A DNA stretch of 64,000 nucleotides, taken from the NCBI GenBank assembly GCA_965285935.1, contig OZ260661.1:82708001-82772000 (forward strand), in the 5' to 3' direction. Position numbers: made by a program. Positions within the stretch are counted from its first letter, which is position 1, and the number at the start of each line of letters is the position of its first letter. Below, piece after piece: positions 39,001 to 45,000 of this stretch. The stretch comes from Ophelia neglecta. Lineage: Eukaryota.

Positions 39001-42000
39001 TATGGAAGAAAATGATGTGATCAGTAACCTGAATAATCAGAGCTTCGACAAGCGGGCAGAAGTATTGGAACAACTGAGGACTGCAGCTCGTAGAAATGGA
39101 GGTAGGCTTCCTTTCCCAGATCAACGCTCTATTTTTAATGGACTGTGTTCGTCACTCAATGACAGCAACTGGGACGTAAGGCACCAATGCATTCAGTTGA
39201 TACATGAGCTAATACCACAATTTGGGGAGGACTTGGATGAATGCATGTCAATAGTGTTGGAGCATTTAATTCCAAACATAGGAGACACTAAAATTACTGT
39301 TCGAAGAGCAGTGATACAAACCATACATGTTTATATGAAATATACATCGGACATTCATGGATTGTTTAAAGCAATTGTGTGGTATGGTCTGGAAAACCGC
39401 AATTCGCGAATCAAGAAGGAAATGGTAATATCATTGCCGATGGTTTTCACGCCAGAATTTTCTCAAGAGAATATGTTTGATATTACGCAAGCTTTAGCTA
39501 AGCGTCTACTGGAGAGTGATGGAGAGACAGGTAACGGCCTACAACAACATGCCCTCCTGTCATTGGAGAAGATCAGAAATCTGGTGGGGGATTCAACATT
39601 CAAAAGTTACTTGCAGAAGCTCTCCACCCCCCTGAGAAAATACTATTATCAGGTATCGGAGCATCAAGAAGAAATTAATTCAGAAAATAACAATAAGACC
39701 AGTTCAAAGCACAGTGCGTACAGCACACATTCTTCCCATTCCAATGGTCATATACGAGCTTTTGAGCCCTACCCAGATCCTCCACAACCTCAACCAAGAT
39801 CCAAGGAAACCATGATTCATTCAACAAACAATCTTGAGTTTGGAGTTGTTCCTGGTCATATCATGGACAAACTCAATGACCAGAGTAATTTCCGAGCCAG
39901 AGCACAGGGAGTGGAAGAGCTTAAACTGATTATTAAAGATCTTGACGATATAAGTGTGTTACATCCACAAATCTTGAACTTTATCAGTTTTCTTAATAAT
40001 CTGCTTGATGACTCAAACTTTAAAATTACTACAGTGACCCTAGAAATACTGGGAATACTAGTATCAAAGTTAAGCTTCAATGTACAGGATCATTTAAAAC
40101 CACTGGTTTTGGCATTATGTAAGCGGATGGGTGACAACAAAATAGTTGTCAGACAGGCCATAATGAAAGTAGCCATCCAGCTCATGCAGATCCTGTCTCC
40201 GAAAGAAGTACTGTCTGTCATTTGTGACAACCTATCCCATCGGAACTCTCGAGTTCGACAGGAGACACTGAACATAGTCATACGCTCCCTTCTTACTTTC
40301 CCAAGCTATGAATTTGATCTTGGAGAGCTATGCCAGAAAATTGCGCATACACTTATTGACCCCAAGAGGCAAGTGAGGCAGGCATCTTTAGAGTGTTTTT
40401 CTGTGTTGGCTCAGGCTATGGGAGCAGGCAAATTACAGCCGCTGGTACAGGCAGTAGACAGTGTAGAACTCAGTTATGATGGCGATGGAGTGATGGCTGC
40501 TGTGCAGTCCCGACTTGCTCGACGTCAGCTACCTCGGGTGAATGCTGACGGGCTCATTGATTACGCCACCCCAATACCGTCGTCAGCAGCATCAAGTCGA
40601 GGTTCTGTCCCTGCTGGTGCTGACATTGATTGGATCCTGCTGGCCTCTGGAAGCTCTGGATCAAGTGCACGCTCTGCTCGCTCTGATATGGAGCTTGAGA
40701 GTATAGCTTCAGGGTCGGCTAGATCCACCCCAGTACATATACCCGAGAGTCCTGCTCATACCCCGAGGAATAGTGGTAGACACCTGGCATCAGCTTCTAG
40801 GCGCTCAAAACTGCCTTGGGATGACAATGAGTTCAATCAGGTAAGAACTGAATAATTACTTTCAATTAGTTACATACTGTATATATTTCTGTTCCAAACA
40901 AGGAATTTAAACTTATATGATTTTCATAGATAAATTTAAAGCCAATCAAACATGTATTTTTGGTTCTTCGTCCATCGAGTTTCAAACAAAAATAGATATA
41001 TCTTTGAAAAAGATTTTTCTATCTGGAAATAAGATTTACATCAATATTTATTTTGCAGTCAAGCTTGTACACAAAACTTTTTTGTTTATGACGGTCGCAC
41101 CTAATATTACTCTTCTTCTGCTATGAACACGGTGATGGCGCACTTCTATCTAATACTGTAAGACATGAAATTTCTGTGCGCATGTCATTTTTGCCTTTCA
41201 ATTAATCAGTTGTATTGCGAGGATACTAGTAACCTGCCGCGAAAAACTGTGGACGCTTTTGTGCAATTTTCTGATGCTGCAGAAAGTTCATGTTTTACAT
41301 TCTGAATAATTACCAATATAAGCTTCTTTTGTGTCACAGTGTGCTGTCTATTGTGTATAAATCTCTGCACTTCCTCTTCTGTAGATATTACCACCACTTT
41401 CTGCATGTTAACAAGCTGTTCTTCCTGCCTCTCCTCTAGAACTTGTCCCCAAGACCGCTTTTGCACAGAAATACATATGAAGTAAAAGCCAAGCCACTAA
41501 AAGGTAGCAAACAGCCACTTTCTTACTTGGAAAAATGGAAGAGGCAGAGGCACCCAATCAAGAGTACTGAATCAAAGGTGCTGGCTACTAAGGCTCGCAG
41601 GAGCATCCTTGATTTGAGTTTTGGTGGTGAACAGGCAAAATTAAATTCCAGCATTGAAAACAGCCTGTGTGAAGAAGACGTTCCATCCTCACCACCAGAG
41701 AGTTCAAGGAGACTTTCACCACCCCCCTTGTCACATGACTCAGACAGAGAGATGGAGCGTCCACCATTACATGCTTCTGCAGATACAGCAGACTTGAGAT
41801 GTTTGATTAAACTTAAACATAATGACTTTAAACAAGATGTATTAATTAATCCAGGTGTCAGTTCTCCTACTCAAGATGATATGCCAGAGTACTCCCATTA
41901 TCCATCTGAGGTAGACCAAAAATATGTAGAAAAAAAACGGTCTCCAGCTTTTACTGGCAAAATGGACCTAATTACTGGTAATTTTCCACGCAAAGATGAA

Positions 42001-45000
42001 CCTTCCAGTTTAACACCAATACCAAAGACCGTCACACCTTTGAGTGGGTCCTCTTCGCGAAGTACAGCACTATCTCACTATGATACTTCAGGTGGGTGTT
42101 CAGACTGTAGTGGTACTCCCATGACAGATGAGTCGGTATCGACGAGTATATCTAATGCACTAGCACCTTTGTCACCTGCTATTCTTACCAGATCAAGATT
42201 ATCTCCTCTAGTCTCCCCCTTGAAATCAGCTGCCATTTCTCCAAATCAACCAGCCCATTTACCTCTTGTAAGATCACCAGGGGAAACAACTAGAATGCAT
42301 CTACAGCCAATGAATATGAAAAAACCACCAAGTCTACTGACTCCAAAGTCTCCAACCAAAAACACTCAATCCACATTGAGCTCTATAGAATGCATGGTGG
42401 ATGATGAACAGACTGCACCAGAGGCTTTGAAAATAAATAATTCTGTAGTGGTCTCAGCTAGAGGATCAACAGAATGCAATCAGAGTCCTTTAGGTAGGAT
42501 TGAAGAATTATCCGATCCACCTTCTGGGGATAAGCCTGAGCTATTATCAAAGGAACATTTCCAGGCAAAAGGTAAAATGAATTTCCCAATGAAGGCAAAA
42601 GCAGCTGAAATGTCTGAAGTAAAACACAAACTCCTGGTTGATGAAAACTCTGACTCTTCCAATAGATCTGCAATGTCTGAGACAATGATACCACCGCAGG
42701 CAGAGACTTGTGACCTTCAAACACCAGCAGTGGTCTGTAAACAGTCTAGTGTAAGAAGCTCAAACAAAAGGGTAACACCTACCAAAATGGCTCAAGCAAA
42801 AACATTTTCTGAAATAGGTCAAGAAAATAATGCAGTTTCTAGTAGCCCTTCTCCAATATCAACGAGGGAAACCGACACAAAGAAGGACAAAAGAAAATTG
42901 GCCTGCCATGAGGATAAAACCAAACAAAAAATGCAAAACAGAACTAAAAAAATTAAAATTGGCAATAAAATGTCACAAGATAAATCTTCCTTGACTACCA
43001 TTGGTCAAGAATTCAGTAACATGCCTGATTCATGCAATCAGAGTATAAAGCTCCCTAAAATTGGCCGAAATTTGTCCCGAAATTCGGATGATTTATCCAC
43101 AATATCTCAGAGTGATACATCTGGAAATGAACTGGTGAATACGTCTGCAGTTATGTCAGATAGGAAAGAAGGCGTTCGTTTCTCATTACCTGAACCACAG
43201 TCTGTACGACATGCTTTGGTTTCACCTGTGGAGCATACGACATCCACATCTCTAGAGGTAGCATCAAATTCTAGGAGATTCCCACTTTCCCCTGAAGAAA
43301 GCCCAGGCTCCCCTCATCTTAAAGAAACAAAAGAGAGTCCCTCTTCAAGCAAGATATGTGGGCAGTCCTCATTTGGACCATACTTGAAAGCTAGACTATA
43401 TAAGCAGTGTCCCCCAAACACAGATTCATTGGTTACTTTAATGGTTGGGAGGCCTTCAGCTTTCTCCAGAACATCTCTAGAAGACAGCCTAGACAACTGG
43501 GATGATGAGGCGGACTCACTGGGAAATCTGCCAGCTGAAGGTGTTGAGTCTGTCTCTGTTAAACCTGCTGTCTGTCTAGAACCTTGCTCTGCTGTGGTAA
43601 GCCGTAGGATAAGGAGCAATTAGCAAATAAGTTTTGTTACATTTTTGTTGTTTCATGGAAAAAGTGACAAGAATGTCCATAATAAAACTGGCCATATTGA
43701 AAAAAGTAGTAGCCCAATTTTTTTACCATGAACATTTACCTGTAAATTCAAGTGTTTTTAATCAAAGGAAATAGCTGCAGTCCCAATTGCCTCTGCAGTT
43801 TAAAGGTTACAATTTAAAGCTGTGAATAAGTCCCATGAATAAGGCTTAGATATGTAGATGAGATAATAGGCTAGAGACTGAAGAGAGCCTATGCTGTAGA
43901 TAAAATACTATGAGCCTTATCTTCTAATGTCATGAAAAAAACCCATATATATGTAATATTATGGATTATCAAATGTATCATCAAGTTGTTGGATTTTGGA
44001 CCAGCTTAAAGATATGCACTGATTGTTTGCTTTCATATCAACACAGTTACTAATAAACAGGGCCTCAAAGTAGACCTGTTGTCAGAGAGAGGGCACTTTT
44101 ATGTTTATCTAGAGGTAAAATTAAAAGTATGTACTTGGAGAAGTCATGAATTATTCTGTTACCATAAAGTGTAAATGATTTAAATAAGGAGGAGGAAAAA
44201 GGCCTAGAAAAACATGCATATTTAGTATATATATACATGTATGTGTGTTTTATACAAAGGTACATGTTCACAATATCTAATAACAGACGGAGGCTATTAC
44301 ATGTAGAAGCGTAGGTGGGCTGAATGGTGACTGAGGCATTTCAGAATAAATTCTTCATCAGAATCTGTGAATTTAGCCACTGGCCTTTAGATCTATTAAA
44401 TTTATTTGTAAAACACAGTACATATATTTGATGAAACAGTACATATAGGCGCAGAAGCTGCTAACTTGATGCTGATGGCAGCAGCAACTGAAATGTATTA
44501 AATGGCTGACCACATCGGCGAAGCTGGAACTCGGCAATCATACTTGTCTTCCCATACCTGTTAATTCCTCCCTACTCCTCCATACCCATGTCTGTCCTTA
44601 ATTTACCTAGCTTTACCTGTGCTCTCCTCTGTCTTTTTCCACACCAGGTGATAATCTTGTTAAGCAAAGACCTCTGTTATAAATGAGTCTTTTGATTCCT
44701 GCTTAAGGTAATATACACAATGCAGTGTGATCAATAACAGTTGGCTTGTGCAATTTGTTTTCATGGCCTGCATTCTGCATACTAGAAAACTGGTATGTGT
44801 GTTGTTATAAATTTATATTTTGCCCAATCTGCTCCACAAATAACTGTTACTGGTGAGGAGATTATGGCTGGTGCCCCACAAGGAGATTTCTGCTGGAATA
44901 CTCCTCCCCTCCCTCCTTCAGTACTATTTCTGCTTTTCATATTTAATCCAGCTCTTTTGCGGATCATGTTACCAAATACTTGGCTAATATCTGTATGCAA

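What the first reader, a model, noticed from the sequence alone, without database searches (positions are those of the whole stretch)
41440..43690. 2.16-kb giant, frame-preserving exon in TOGARAM1 with a built-in terminal-exon option
Seen: 719 uninterrupted codons between a strong phase-0 acceptor (41439) and a phase-0 donor (43596), so skipping keeps the frame. If the donor is ignored the frame stops 8 codons later (43621) and AATAAA follows at 43681. The product is low-complexity with many SP/TP sites and an LPKI motif. Inference: the locus can make a normal protein, a form ~720 aa longer between TOG2 and the C-terminal half, or a TOG1-2-only protein. With the acylated C-terminal isoform this would split crescerin into separately expressed halves. 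Giant disordered exons are known in other cytoskeletal genes such as ankyrins, but I do not know of one here.
Basis: partly seen in the sequence, partly recalled or inferred. Interest (0 to 1): 0.7.

Follow-up and report, generated by a model that had tools for sequence, protein, structure and literature searches.

The report
Giant disordered linker exon in TOGARAM1
A 2.2-kb open stretch in an invertebrate cilia gene (TOGARAM1/crescerin) is a real protein-coding exon that more than doubles the floppy linker between the protein's two halves, but nothing in the DNA shows that the cell switches it on and off or uses it to end the message early.

Summary
Window 41440-43596 (+) is 719 open codons, from a pyrimidine-rich acceptor to a GTAAG donor, both in phase 0. 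A TAG lies 8 codons past the donor and AATAAA at 43681. The ORF is coding: chance of staying open is about 8e-20, and codon usage fits exon 1 only in this frame. It is exon 2 of a spiralian (non-human) TOGARAM1 orthologue. Nine exons chain without a phase break.

The peptide is disordered, Ser/Pro-rich and mildly basic, with linker-like composition. It has no detectable homologue: no Pfam family, 0 hits in 1.84 billion representative proteins, and nothing significant against 74 orthologues. It replaces a proximal linker segment of 65-304 residues in orthologues. In molluscs that segment carries small annotated cassette exons.

The "terminal-exon option" is at chance level. All 7 donors tested hit a stop within 1-22 codons, 2 of 7 have AATAAA within 90 nt, and 9.4% of window positions do.

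Whether the exon is ever skipped cannot be decided without transcripts. My best reading is a lineage-specific, mainly included linker expansion (0.5). A regulated cassette is the main rival (0.35).

The parts
38930..40840 (+). Exon 1 (ATG to donor CAG|gtaaga; 637 codons; phase 0 to 0): TOG1 + TOG2 and the post-TOG2 tail ending ...KLPWDDNEFNQ
   Evidence: Pfam TOG/HEAT families: CLASP_N 1.5e-11, CEP104-like_TOG 1.3e-10, XMAP215_CLASP_TOG 5.5e-9. 59% identical over 100% of its length to Lineus longissimus TOGARAM1-like; 74 long orthologues at E<=1e-10. Splice site read.
40841..41439 (+). Intron 1 (599 nt), ending in a pyrimidine-rich tract and AG. The AG is part of the in-frame TAG that opens the giant ORF.
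41440..43596 (+). The giant exon (exon 2): 2157 nt, 719 codons, phase 0 to 0. It encodes a disordered, Ser/Pro-rich, mildly basic peptide (P0001).
   Evidence: ORF. P(open by chance) 7.8e-20; codon log-likelihood against introns +170 bits in frame 0, negative in the 5 other frames. No Pfam family. 0 hits in 1.84e9 representatives. All 719 residues pLDDT<50.
42880..42999 (+). Most basic patch of the exon peptide (residues 481-520, net charge +10; KKDKRK...KKIKIGNK)
   Evidence: charge profile and K[KR].[KR] matches. A role in microtubule or partner binding is inference only.
43051..43062 (+).
   Evidence: one occurrence. No known motif is assigned; the EB-binding-type pattern [ST]x[IL]P occurs 2 times against 1.7 expected.
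43597..43623 (+). Donor GTG|gtaagc and the read-through frame, ending at TAG 43621-43623
   Evidence: The donor matches the MAG|GTRAGT consensus at 6 of 9 positions (my own count from the sites printed, which gives no per-donor scores).
43681..43686 (+). AATAAA hexamer 85 nt after the donor
   Evidence: There are 72 AATAAA on the + strand of the window, and 9.4% of positions have one within 90 nt.
45682..45745 (+). Exon 3 (64 nt, phase 0 to 1; TFGSEKKSSRRRNRREDSPE-G). It is needed to bring phase 0 (exon 1 or 2) to the phase-1 acceptor of exon 4.
   Evidence: It has no significant homology of its own.
52037..52191 (+). Exon 4 (155 nt, phase 1 to 0): the conserved linker island PIPxKP(T/I)..(A)SR..K.PPI
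   Evidence: orthologue-linker HMM E 1.8e-4; island HMM E 2.4e-3; sequence
52451..52635 (+). Exon 5 (185 nt, phase 0 to 2)
   Evidence: linker HMM E 9.3e-8; splice sites
53079..53356 (+). Exon 6 (278 nt, phase 2 to 1): the best-conserved linker island
   Evidence: linker HMM E 5.7e-21. tblastn hits from all 9 of the 10 tested orthologues that matched any linker exon, for example Lineus 1.9e-12; P0068 matched exon 1 only.
53784..53876 (+). Exon 7 (93 nt, phase 1 to 1; tandem cag|cag acceptor). Its counterpart is an annotated cassette in Ruditapes (39 aa) and Haliotis (36 aa).
57966..58147 (+). Exon 8 (182 nt, phase 1 to 0; GMFDASP...)
   Evidence: linker HMM E 2.8e-6; sequence
63479..63698 (+). 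Exon 9 (220 nt, phase 0 to 1; Lys/Glu/Arg-rich). The linker continues past the window end; TOG3 and TOG4 are not in the window.
   Evidence: linker HMM E 2e-10 at profile positions 506-571 of 636; sequence

Best explanation
The 2157-nt ORF is a genuine internal coding exon (exon 2) of the window's TOGARAM1/crescerin orthologue, in a spiralian invertebrate, not human. It encodes 719 residues of intrinsically disordered, Ser/Pro/Thr-rich, mildly basic sequence. It sits at the very start of the long linker between the TOG1-TOG2 pair and the TOG3-TOG4 pair. It occupies the place of a proximal linker segment that in other animals is 65-304 residues long and carries short conserved islands. Its sequence is restricted to this lineage. 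I take it to be a lineage-specific expansion of the linker that is spliced into the main mRNA (exon 1 - exon 2 - exon 3), giving a protein of roughly 2400 residues with a linker about twice the usual length. By analogy with the mammalian linker, it would act as a flexible, phosphorylatable spacer. It could add microtubule-lattice affinity or partner-docking surface, and it would lengthen the tether between the ARMC9-binding N-terminal TOG pair and the tubulin-binding C-terminal pair. Shown: the ORF, its coding character, the splice sites and phases, gene membership, disorder-type composition, SP/TP enrichment, and the lack of homologues. Inferred: inclusion in the main transcript, and any function. 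Skipping is allowed by the phases but is unproven. The stop and AATAAA after the donor are what any intron here would offer.
For: Coding and exon status. 727 open codons, P = 7.8e-20. Codon log-likelihood (trained on exons 1, 4, 5 and 6 against introns) is +170 bits in frame, against -211 and -346 in the other sense frames and -26 to -402 antisense. The ORF opens exactly at a 3' splice site and closes 8 codons after a GTAAG donor.
Gene membership. Exon 1 carries TOG1-TOG2 and is 59% identical to Lineus TOGARAM1-like. An HMM of 28 orthologue linkers finds exons 4-9 downstream in collinear order, with E from 2.9e-3 to 5.7e-21. Nine exons chain with no phase break.
Linker-like nature. Composition correlates at r = 0.88 (median of 28) with orthologue linkers, against 0.62 with their TOG domains. 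pI is 8.65 against a linker median of 9.27. All 719 residues have pLDDT<50.
For inclusion. The acceptor tract is pyrimidine-rich, the donor is paired to U1 from -1 to +5, and the upstream intron is short at 599 nt. Without the exon, the distance from KLPW to the PIPxKP island would be 38 aa, shorter than in all 42 orthologues where both landmarks were found (65-304 aa, median 126).
Linker function in mammals. The linker contributes to microtubule affinity and binds the CEP104 zinc finger (PMC12170345, passages read) and RPGRIP1L (10.1101/817213, passages read). Linker lengths vary between species (PMC4642858, legend passage read).
Against: No transcript evidence of any kind was available.
With the exon, the linker would be about 1200 aa, against 480-814 aa in 28 orthologues. 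The protein would be about 2370 aa, against 1142-2179 (median 1698) in 74 orthologues. Without the exon, both values fall in the ordinary range.
The exon is phase-symmetric. Mollusc orthologues have annotated cassette exons in exactly this segment.
A close relative's exon 1 ORF is in the protein collection: P0077, 84% identical overall, 63% in the inter-TOG disordered stretch and 88% in the post-TOG2 tail, taken from a 16.6-kb genomic contig. Yet the exon peptide found 0 proteins in the 1.84e9 representatives of that collection. So the exon may be absent or very young in that relative, and young exons tend to be alternative (recalled general knowledge).
The conserved proximal islands (NSAP, PPKPRNTW, GSYKQIHLxKLKR) are not significantly present in the exon: HMM score 4.0 bits, rank 31 of 924 windows, reached by 184 of 2000 shuffles; PSSM scores negative.
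Confidence: 0.5

Rival explanations
1. Regulated cassette exon. The gene makes an ordinary-length crescerin by joining exon 1 to exon 3, and in particular cells it makes a 'giant' form with 719 extra linker residues. This would be analogous to big tau or giant ankyrins.
For: Phase 0 to 0, so both junctions keep the frame. The exon-less protein (about 1650 aa, linker about 480 aa) matches orthologue lengths: median 1698 aa, linkers 480-814 aa. Annotated isoforms differ by cassettes of 10-54 aa precisely between the end of the exon-1 equivalent and the PIPxKP island, in Mytilus edulis (7 isoforms plus 2 M. galloprovincialis models in the same alignment), M. californianus (8), Ruditapes (4) and Haliotis (5). 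No homologue was found even though a relative's exon 1 ORF is in the collection. Large disordered, sequence-divergent alternative exons are known in other microtubule or cytoskeleton proteins: big tau exon 4a (PMC12896622) and giant ankyrin exons (PMC6660793), search listings only.
Against: No transcript data. Phase symmetry is expected by chance in roughly a third of exons (my estimate). The splice sites are not weak. The mollusc cassettes are small and show no homology to this exon. The skipped form would have a proximal linker shorter than any orthologue measured: 38 aa against a minimum of 65 in 42.
Confidence: 0.35
2. Alternative (composite) terminal exon. The donor at 43596 is sometimes ignored, translation stops at 43621, and the message is cleaved after the AATAAA at 43681. 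This would give a protein with TOG1-TOG2 plus a disordered tail and no C-terminal TOG pair.
For: An in-frame TAG 8 codons after the donor and a canonical AATAAA 85 nt after it, followed by T-rich sequence. NCBI lists short N-terminal-only TOGARAM1-like models in other animals, for example Ptychodera flava (700 aa) and Anneissia japonica (723 aa). These may equally be partial models.
Against: Not above chance. All 7 of 7 donors tested meet a read-through stop within 1-22 codons. 2 of 7 exons have AATAAA within 90 nt (exon 3 at +15). 9.4% of all window positions have one within 90 nt, with 72 hexamers on the + strand. The donor has an intact GGTAAG core. The mammalian TOG1-TOG2 pair without linker does not bind microtubules (PMC12170345, passage read), though here a linker-like tail would be attached.
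Confidence: 0.05
3. Not part of the TOGARAM1 message: a nested independent gene, a transposon-derived ORF, or a recently dead pseudo-exon lying in intron 1.
For: No homologue anywhere. No spliced-read evidence. The first Met is only about 105 residues in, so an own start is conceivable.
Against: The ORF is bounded exactly by an acceptor and a donor, in the same phase as both neighbouring exons. It is on the same strand, and its codon usage matches exon 1. No transposase, RT or integrase family at E<=0.1. No second copy in the window and no internal repeat. No tandem repeat inside it. Its composition is that of TOGARAM1 linkers. A dead ORF would not stay open for 727 codons.
Confidence: 0.05

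Closest known systems
Central TOG2-TOG3 linker of TOGARAM1/crescerin-1 (FAM179B) in mammals and other animals
   Same: Same gene family and same position, after TOG2 and before TOG3. It is disordered, basic and Ser/Pro/Thr-rich: composition r = 0.88 with 28 orthologue linkers. In mammals the linker adds microtubule affinity and binds CEP104 and RPGRIP1L (PMC12170345 and 10.1101/817213, passages read). Linker length is known to vary between species (PMC4642858, legend passage read).
   Different: This one exon (719 aa) alone exceeds the median whole linker of 28 orthologues (563 aa, range 480-814). It shows no significant sequence similarity to any of 74 orthologues. [ST]P density is about twice theirs: 3.5 against 1.8 per 100 aa. 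The conserved proximal islands are not recognisable.
Small cassette exons in the proximal linker of mollusc TOGARAM1-like genes (NCBI isoform models of Mytilus, Ruditapes, Haliotis)
   Same: Same place in the protein, between the KLPW end of the exon-1 equivalent and the PIPxKP island. They are frame-preserving.
   Different: They are 10-54 aa, not 719, and some carry conserved islands (KRVPKRR, GSYxQxYL). Their alternative use is stated by annotation. For the window exon nothing is known.
Big tau exon 4a and the giant exons of ankyrin-G and ankyrin-B
   Same: A single large exon encoding a long disordered insert between functional parts of a cytoskeleton-associated protein. For exon 4a, length is conserved while sequence diverges strongly (PMC12896622, highlights seen in the search listing; ankyrin papers seen as listings only).
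   Different: Those exons are shown to be tissue-specifically included, whereas inclusion or skipping is untested here. Exon 4a is acidic, this exon is mildly basic. They are different gene families, so this is a resemblance, not membership.
BRCA1 exon 11 type large exons
   Same: The nearest look-alikes by protein-language-model features were fragments of BRCA1, TICRR, PPP1R26 and AF4/FMR2 (scores 0.84-0.79). These are long disordered regions of large nuclear proteins.
   Different: All scores are below 0.9, a range that shuffled proteins reach a third of the time. This shows generic disorder, not kinship. That BRCA1 exon 11 is a large exon with an in-frame skipped isoform is recalled, not checked.

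Membership tests
TOGARAM1 / crescerin-1 (FAM179B) orthologue | N-terminal pair of TOG (HEAT-repeat) domains most similar to named TOGARAM1 proteins | tested here: met
   Pfam TOG/HEAT families in two blocks of exon 1. All 74 long hits at E<=1e-10 are TOGARAM1-like or TOG-domain proteins, the best being Lineus longissimus at 59% over 100% of the query.
TOGARAM1 / crescerin-1 (FAM179B) orthologue | Long central linker with the family's conserved islands, collinear with orthologues | tested here: met
   The linker HMM from 28 orthologues hits six downstream exons in order, with E from 2.9e-3 to 5.7e-21. The giant exon itself is not hit.
TOGARAM1 / crescerin-1 (FAM179B) orthologue | C-terminal pair of TOG domains (TOG3, TOG4) | not testable with these tools
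   The window ends at profile position 571 of 636 of the linker. TOG3 and TOG4 lie beyond base 64000.
Cassette (skipped or included) exon | Length a multiple of three, with the same phase on both sides | tested here: met
   2157 nt, phase 0 to 0. Exon 1 also ends in phase 0 and exon 3 starts in phase 0.
Cassette (skipped or included) exon | Both the inclusion and the exclusion junction seen in transcripts | not testable with these tools
   No transcript or read data.
Cassette (skipped or included) exon | Sub-optimal splice sites relative to neighbouring constitutive exons | tested here: inconclusive
   My count from the sites printed: the donor matches the consensus at 6 of 9 positions, against 5-8 of 9 for the 7 donors of the gene. 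The acceptor tract is pyrimidine-rich. There were too few exons for a proper model.
Composite terminal exon (intronic polyadenylation) | In-frame stop soon after the unspliced donor, plus a poly(A) signal nearby, beyond what other introns offer | tested here: not met
   Both are present, but a stop within 1-22 codons occurs at 7 of 7 donors. AATAAA within 90 nt occurs at 2 of 7 exons and at 9.4% of window positions.
Composite terminal exon (intronic polyadenylation) | Mapped mRNA 3' ends downstream of the hexamer | not testable with these tools
   No 3'-end data.
Giant disordered alternative exons of cytoskeletal proteins (big tau, giant ankyrins) | A single exon of about 0.75 kb or more, encoding a disordered insert between functional domains | tested here: met
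   2157 nt. All 719 residues pLDDT<50 (single-sequence model, weak evidence). 68% disorder-promoting residues. Position between the TOG pairs.
Giant disordered alternative exons of cytoskeletal proteins (big tau, giant ankyrins) | Cell-type-specific inclusion | not testable with these tools
   No expression data.
Transposon-derived or foreign ORF | Similarity to transposon or other proteins, or repeated copies | tested here: not met
   No Pfam family above threshold; the best is TPR_TRIP12_N at E 0.073. 0 hits in 1.84e9 representatives. 0 hits in PDB sequences at E<=1. Only the self-match in the window.

The most novel reading that the evidence does not exclude
The exon is a lineage-specific, cell-type-regulated cassette that creates a 'giant crescerin'. 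An ordinary-length TOGARAM1 would be made in most ciliated cells. A form with a 719-residue SP-rich, phospho-regulated insert would be made in a special cilium type (for example ciliary bands, sperm or sensory neurons). The insert would change the reach between the ARMC9-binding TOG1-2 pair and the tubulin-binding TOG3-4 pair at the ciliary tip. This would be the first giant alternative exon described for a ciliary-tip TOG protein, evolved independently of big tau and giant ankyrins.
Probability: 0.3. Interest if true: 0.5.

Novelty: new variant of a known kind. Interest (0 to 1): 0.3.

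Why it matters
TOGARAM1 is a ciliary-tip microtubule regulator and a Joubert-syndrome gene. Its linker binds microtubules, CEP104 and RPGRIP1L, yet little is known about how linker length matters. A natural variant whose linker is doubled by one exon, possibly switchable, would be a ready-made experiment on tether length and phospho-regulation in a TOG array. 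If the exon is simply constitutive, the finding is one more example of rapid, length-unconstrained evolution of disordered linkers. In that case its main practical value is to gene annotators: a gene model for this genome that skips the exon, or ends at it, would be wrong or incomplete.

Tried and rejected
1. Homology of the exon peptide. Pfam gave nothing above threshold. The word-indexed search among longer proteins gave none. Full phmmer against 1.84e9 representatives gave 0 hits at E<=0.001. BLASTP and phmmer --max against the 74 orthologues alone gave a best E of 0.1-1.5, all scattered. PDB sequences gave 0 hits. ESM Atlas look-alikes were only generic disordered proteins at scores <=0.84.

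2. A possible vestige of the orthologues' proximal islands. By eye, the first 37 residues of the exon (NLSP / PLLHRNTY / LSYLEKWKRQR) resemble NSAP / PPxKxRNTW / GSYxQIHLxKLKR. The test does not support this. The island HMM scored 4.0 bits, rank 31 of 924 real 70-aa windows, and 184 of 2000 shuffles did as well. Ungapped PSSMs scored it negative, with better chance matches elsewhere in the window. Two broader HMMs did not report the exon at all. I treat the resemblance as unproven.

3. Transposon, duplication or internal-repeat origin. Only the self-match by blastn and by self-blastp. No tandem repeat inside the exon.

4. EB1-type SxIP motif. 2 matches against 1.7 expected, with 1043 of 2000 shuffles at least as many. 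Full CDK consensus [ST]Px[KR]: 3 against 2.0 expected. Neither is enriched.

5. Internal donor-like sites. 4 sites match the consensus at 7 or more of 9 positions: 41977, 42091 and 42571 in phase 1, and 43134 in phase 0. I note them as possible partial-exon routes. That many are expected in 2.2 kb, so I do not build on them.

6. Transcript-like evidence in the protein collection. The near-length search with exon 1 gave 107 hits at E<=1e-20. The five unnamed ones I read (P0077, P0078, P0079, P0085, P0091) are single-exon ORFs called on genomic contigs that read through the same donor into the intron. None showed a splice junction.

7. Not done. No complex prediction was run, because no binding claim is made.

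Full report
**1. What is in the sequence**

The window has no N. On the + strand an open frame runs stop-to-stop from 41440 to 43623, 727 codons. It is the longest of the 28 ORFs of 100 aa or more in the window.
- It opens exactly at a 3' splice site (...ttcttcctgcctctcctctag|AAC). The AG of that site is the end of the in-frame TAG that opens the frame.
- A donor GTG|gtaagc lies at 43596/43597. The frame closes at TAG 43621-43623, and AATAAA starts at 43681.
- The exon so defined is 2157 nt = 719 codons, phase 0 on both sides.

**2. Is it coding, and whose exon is it?**

*Coding.* Stop trinucleotides make up 5.87% of the flanking introns, so 727 open codons have a chance probability of 7.8e-20. 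The other two sense frames hold 43 and 71 stops. A codon table trained on the other exons against the introns scores the exon +170 bits in frame. It scores -211 and -346 in the other sense frames and -26 to -402 on the antisense strand.

*Upstream.* 38930-40840 is an ATG-initiated 637-codon exon with two TOG/HEAT blocks.
- Its best named relatives are TOGARAM1-like proteins of spiralian invertebrates: Lineus longissimus 59% identity over 100% of the query, bivalves 55-57%, Tubulanus 56%, Lingula 52%.
- The one mouse-genus orthologue listed is at 34% (74 proteins at E<=1e-10).
- I therefore do not take the window for human.

*Downstream.* An HMM built from the linkers of 28 orthologues finds six exons in collinear order: 52037-52191, 52451-52635, 53079-53356, 53784-53876, 57966-58147 and 63479-63698. 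E values run from 2.9e-3 to 5.7e-21. Their splice sites were read directly.

*The 64-nt exon.* Exon 3 at 45682-45745 has no homology of its own, but it is needed for the frame. It converts phase 0 into the phase 1 that the homologous exon 4 requires.

*The chain.* With exon 3 included, nine exons chain with no phase break: 0-0, 0-0, 0-1, 1-0, 0-2, 2-1, 1-1, 1-0, 0-1 (for the first seven; for the last two).

*Conclusion.* The giant ORF is on the right strand, in the right phase and between the right neighbours. It is exon 2 of this TOGARAM1 orthologue. TOG3 and TOG4 lie beyond the end of the window.

**3. What the exon encodes**

- Composition: Ser 15.6%, Pro 9.2%, Lys 8.1%. pI is 8.65 and net charge +8. 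68% of residues are disorder-promoting, against 57% in exon 1.
- A single-sequence AlphaFold model has all 719 residues below pLDDT 50 and no secondary structure. This is weak evidence, but consistent with disorder.
- Its composition correlates at r = 0.88 (median) with the linkers of 28 orthologues, against 0.62 with their TOG domains. Those linkers are also basic, with median pI 9.27.
- [ST]P sites number 25 against 14.7 +/- 3.2 expected, and 4 of 2000 shuffles reach 25. The density is about twice that of orthologue linkers: 3.5 against 1.8 per 100 aa.
- The full CDK consensus and the EB1-type SxIP pattern are at chance.
- LPKI occurs once, and I know of no function for it.
- The strongest basic patch is residues 481-520, net +10.

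**4. No detectable homologue**

- No Pfam family passes: the best is E 0.073, below its cut-off.
- 0 proteins among longer candidates.
- 0 of 1.84e9 representatives at E<=0.001.
- Nothing significant against the 74 orthologues searched alone, best E 0.1-1.5.
- 0 PDB sequences.
- Only generic disordered look-alikes in the ESM Atlas (BRCA1, TICRR, PPP1R26 and AF4 fragments) at scores <=0.84. Shuffled proteins reach that range a third of the time.
- The exon is not repeated in the window, has no internal repeat, and holds no tandem repeat.

So the transposon and foreign-gene readings fail.

**5. Position relative to the ordinary linker**

In orthologues the stretch after the KLPW motif that ends the exon-1 equivalent carries short conserved islands. 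These are NSAP, PPKPRNTW, KRVPKRR-T and GSYKQIHLxKLKR, followed by the PIPxKPTLARS island.
- The distance from KLPW to the last island is 65-304 aa (median 126) in the 42 of 74 orthologues where my patterns found both landmarks. 14 lacked the first pattern and 18 the second.
- In the window, PIPxKP is in exon 4. The distance is 38 aa without the giant exon and 757 aa with it. Both values fall outside the observed range.
- The whole linker would be about 480 aa without the exon and about 1200 aa with it, against 480-814 aa in 28 orthologues. The whole protein would be about 1650 or about 2370 aa, against 1142-2179 (median 1698) in 74. These window totals are my estimates, because the C-terminal part is outside the window.
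- By eye, the first 37 residues of the exon recall three of the islands, but the tests do not support this.

So the exon is a positional replacement of the proximal linker, and sequence homology is not shown.

**6. Is it alternative?**

Nothing here can show it. Pointers towards a cassette:
- The phases are symmetric.
- The exon-less protein has an ordinary length.
- NCBI isoform models of Mytilus edulis, M. californianus, Ruditapes and Haliotis differ by cassettes of 10-54 aa in exactly this segment. They also differ at the counterpart of exon 7.
- A close relative's exon 1 ORF, P0077, is in the protein collection. It is 84% identical overall, 63% in the inter-TOG disordered stretch and 88% in the post-TOG2 tail. 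It was called on a 16.6-kb genomic contig and reads through the same donor. Yet the giant-exon peptide found nothing in that collection. A homologous exon in that relative should have been easy to detect. It may be absent there, but the contig may end too soon or the ORF may not have been called, and I could not read the DNA.

Pointers towards constitutive inclusion:
- The acceptor is good, and the donor has an intact GGTAAG core.
- The upstream intron is short, 599 nt.
- The exon-less form would have a proximal linker shorter than any orthologue measured.

I put mainly-included at 0.5 and regulated cassette at 0.35.

**7. The terminal-exon option**

- Reading through any of the 7 donors examined meets a stop after 1-22 codons. 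Exon 1 meets one after 4 codons.
- AATAAA occurs 72 times on the + strand, and 9.4% of positions have one within 90 nt.
- 2 of the 7 exons have one that close: the giant exon at +85 and exon 3 at +15.

The feature is therefore what any intron of this AT-rich locus offers. It is not excluded, but it is not evidence (0.05).

**8. How it would work (inference)**

In mammals the linker raises microtubule affinity and binds the CEP104 zinc finger. TOG2 binds ARMC9, and TOG3 and TOG4 carry the rescue activity (PMC12170345, passages read). The linker also binds RPGRIP1L, and human exons 4-7 encode part of it (10.1101/817213, passages read). Linker lengths differ between species (PMC4642858, legend passage read).

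A 719-residue basic, SP-rich insert at the head of the linker would most simply act as extra flexible tether between the two TOG pairs. It could add a phospho-regulated surface for the microtubule lattice or for partners.

**9. Known or new**

Two full-text searches found no report of a giant or alternative linker exon: TOGARAM1 with 'exon' (47 papers, 15 listed) and TOGARAM1 with 'alternative splicing' (10 papers, all listed). I saw titles and abstract starts only, apart from the passages cited. A search for crescerin, linker and TOG (27 papers, 12 listed) likewise showed none in its titles.

Large, disordered, sequence-divergent alternative exons are known in tau and in ankyrins (search listings only).

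I class the finding as a new variant of a known kind: a known gene and a known variable linker, with an unusually large lineage-restricted exon.

**10. What stayed unchecked**

- Transcripts.
- The DNA behind P0077.
- The supplements of the cited papers.

Noticed in passing
window 33064-35878 (-): A BTB-BACK-Kelch gene on the opposite strand, about 3 kb upstream of the TOGARAM1 start codon and so head-to-head with it. BTB scores 6.4e-31, BACK 3.6e-28, and Kelch repeats lie in two further ORFs. From memory, human TOGARAM1 also has a Kelch-like gene (KLHL28) as its divergent neighbour. If that is right, this would be old microsynteny. I did not check it.
   Followed up: partly
window 3490-5307 (+): A 606-codon open frame matching the TMEM151 family (E 1.2e-164, residues 3-354). 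It looks like a single-exon or large-exon gene.
   Followed up: partly
window 11655-12968 (-): A 438-codon open frame with leucine-rich repeats (LRR_6, E 3.8e-22).
   Followed up: partly
window 47434-48849 (+): A 34-nt minisatellite of 41.7 copies, 90% matches, inside the long intron between exons 3 and 4. It produces many overlapping 33-codon pseudo-ORFs.
   Followed up: no
window 53780-53876 (+): Exon 7 (93 nt, phase 1 to 1) has a tandem cag|cag acceptor, so either AG keeps the frame and the products differ by one Ala. Its counterpart (LSPLG...) is an annotated cassette of 36-39 aa in Haliotis and Ruditapes isoforms. This small exon is a better-founded candidate for alternative splicing than the giant one.
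   Followed up: partly
window 45682-45745 and 52037-52191 (+): Exons 3 and 4 together are 219 nt (73 codons). Exon 5 and exon 9 both start in phase 0, so several in-frame skips of linker exons are possible on paper. Mytilus edulis is annotated with isoforms numbered up to X44.
   Followed up: no
proteins P0078-P0183: All five exon-1-sized unnamed hits that I read (P0077, P0078, P0079, P0085, P0091) are ORFs called on genomic contigs that read through the donor at the same place (...Q|V...). So the exon 1 boundary is conserved in those relatives. P0091 reads on into a GQWTPLLHT-type repeat, which is probably intronic.
   Followed up: partly
window 41977, 42091, 42571, 43134 (+): Four donor-like sites inside the giant exon match the consensus at 7 or more of 9 positions. 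Three are in phase 1, the phase of the exon 4 acceptor. They could give partial-exon forms, but that many are expected by chance.
   Followed up: no
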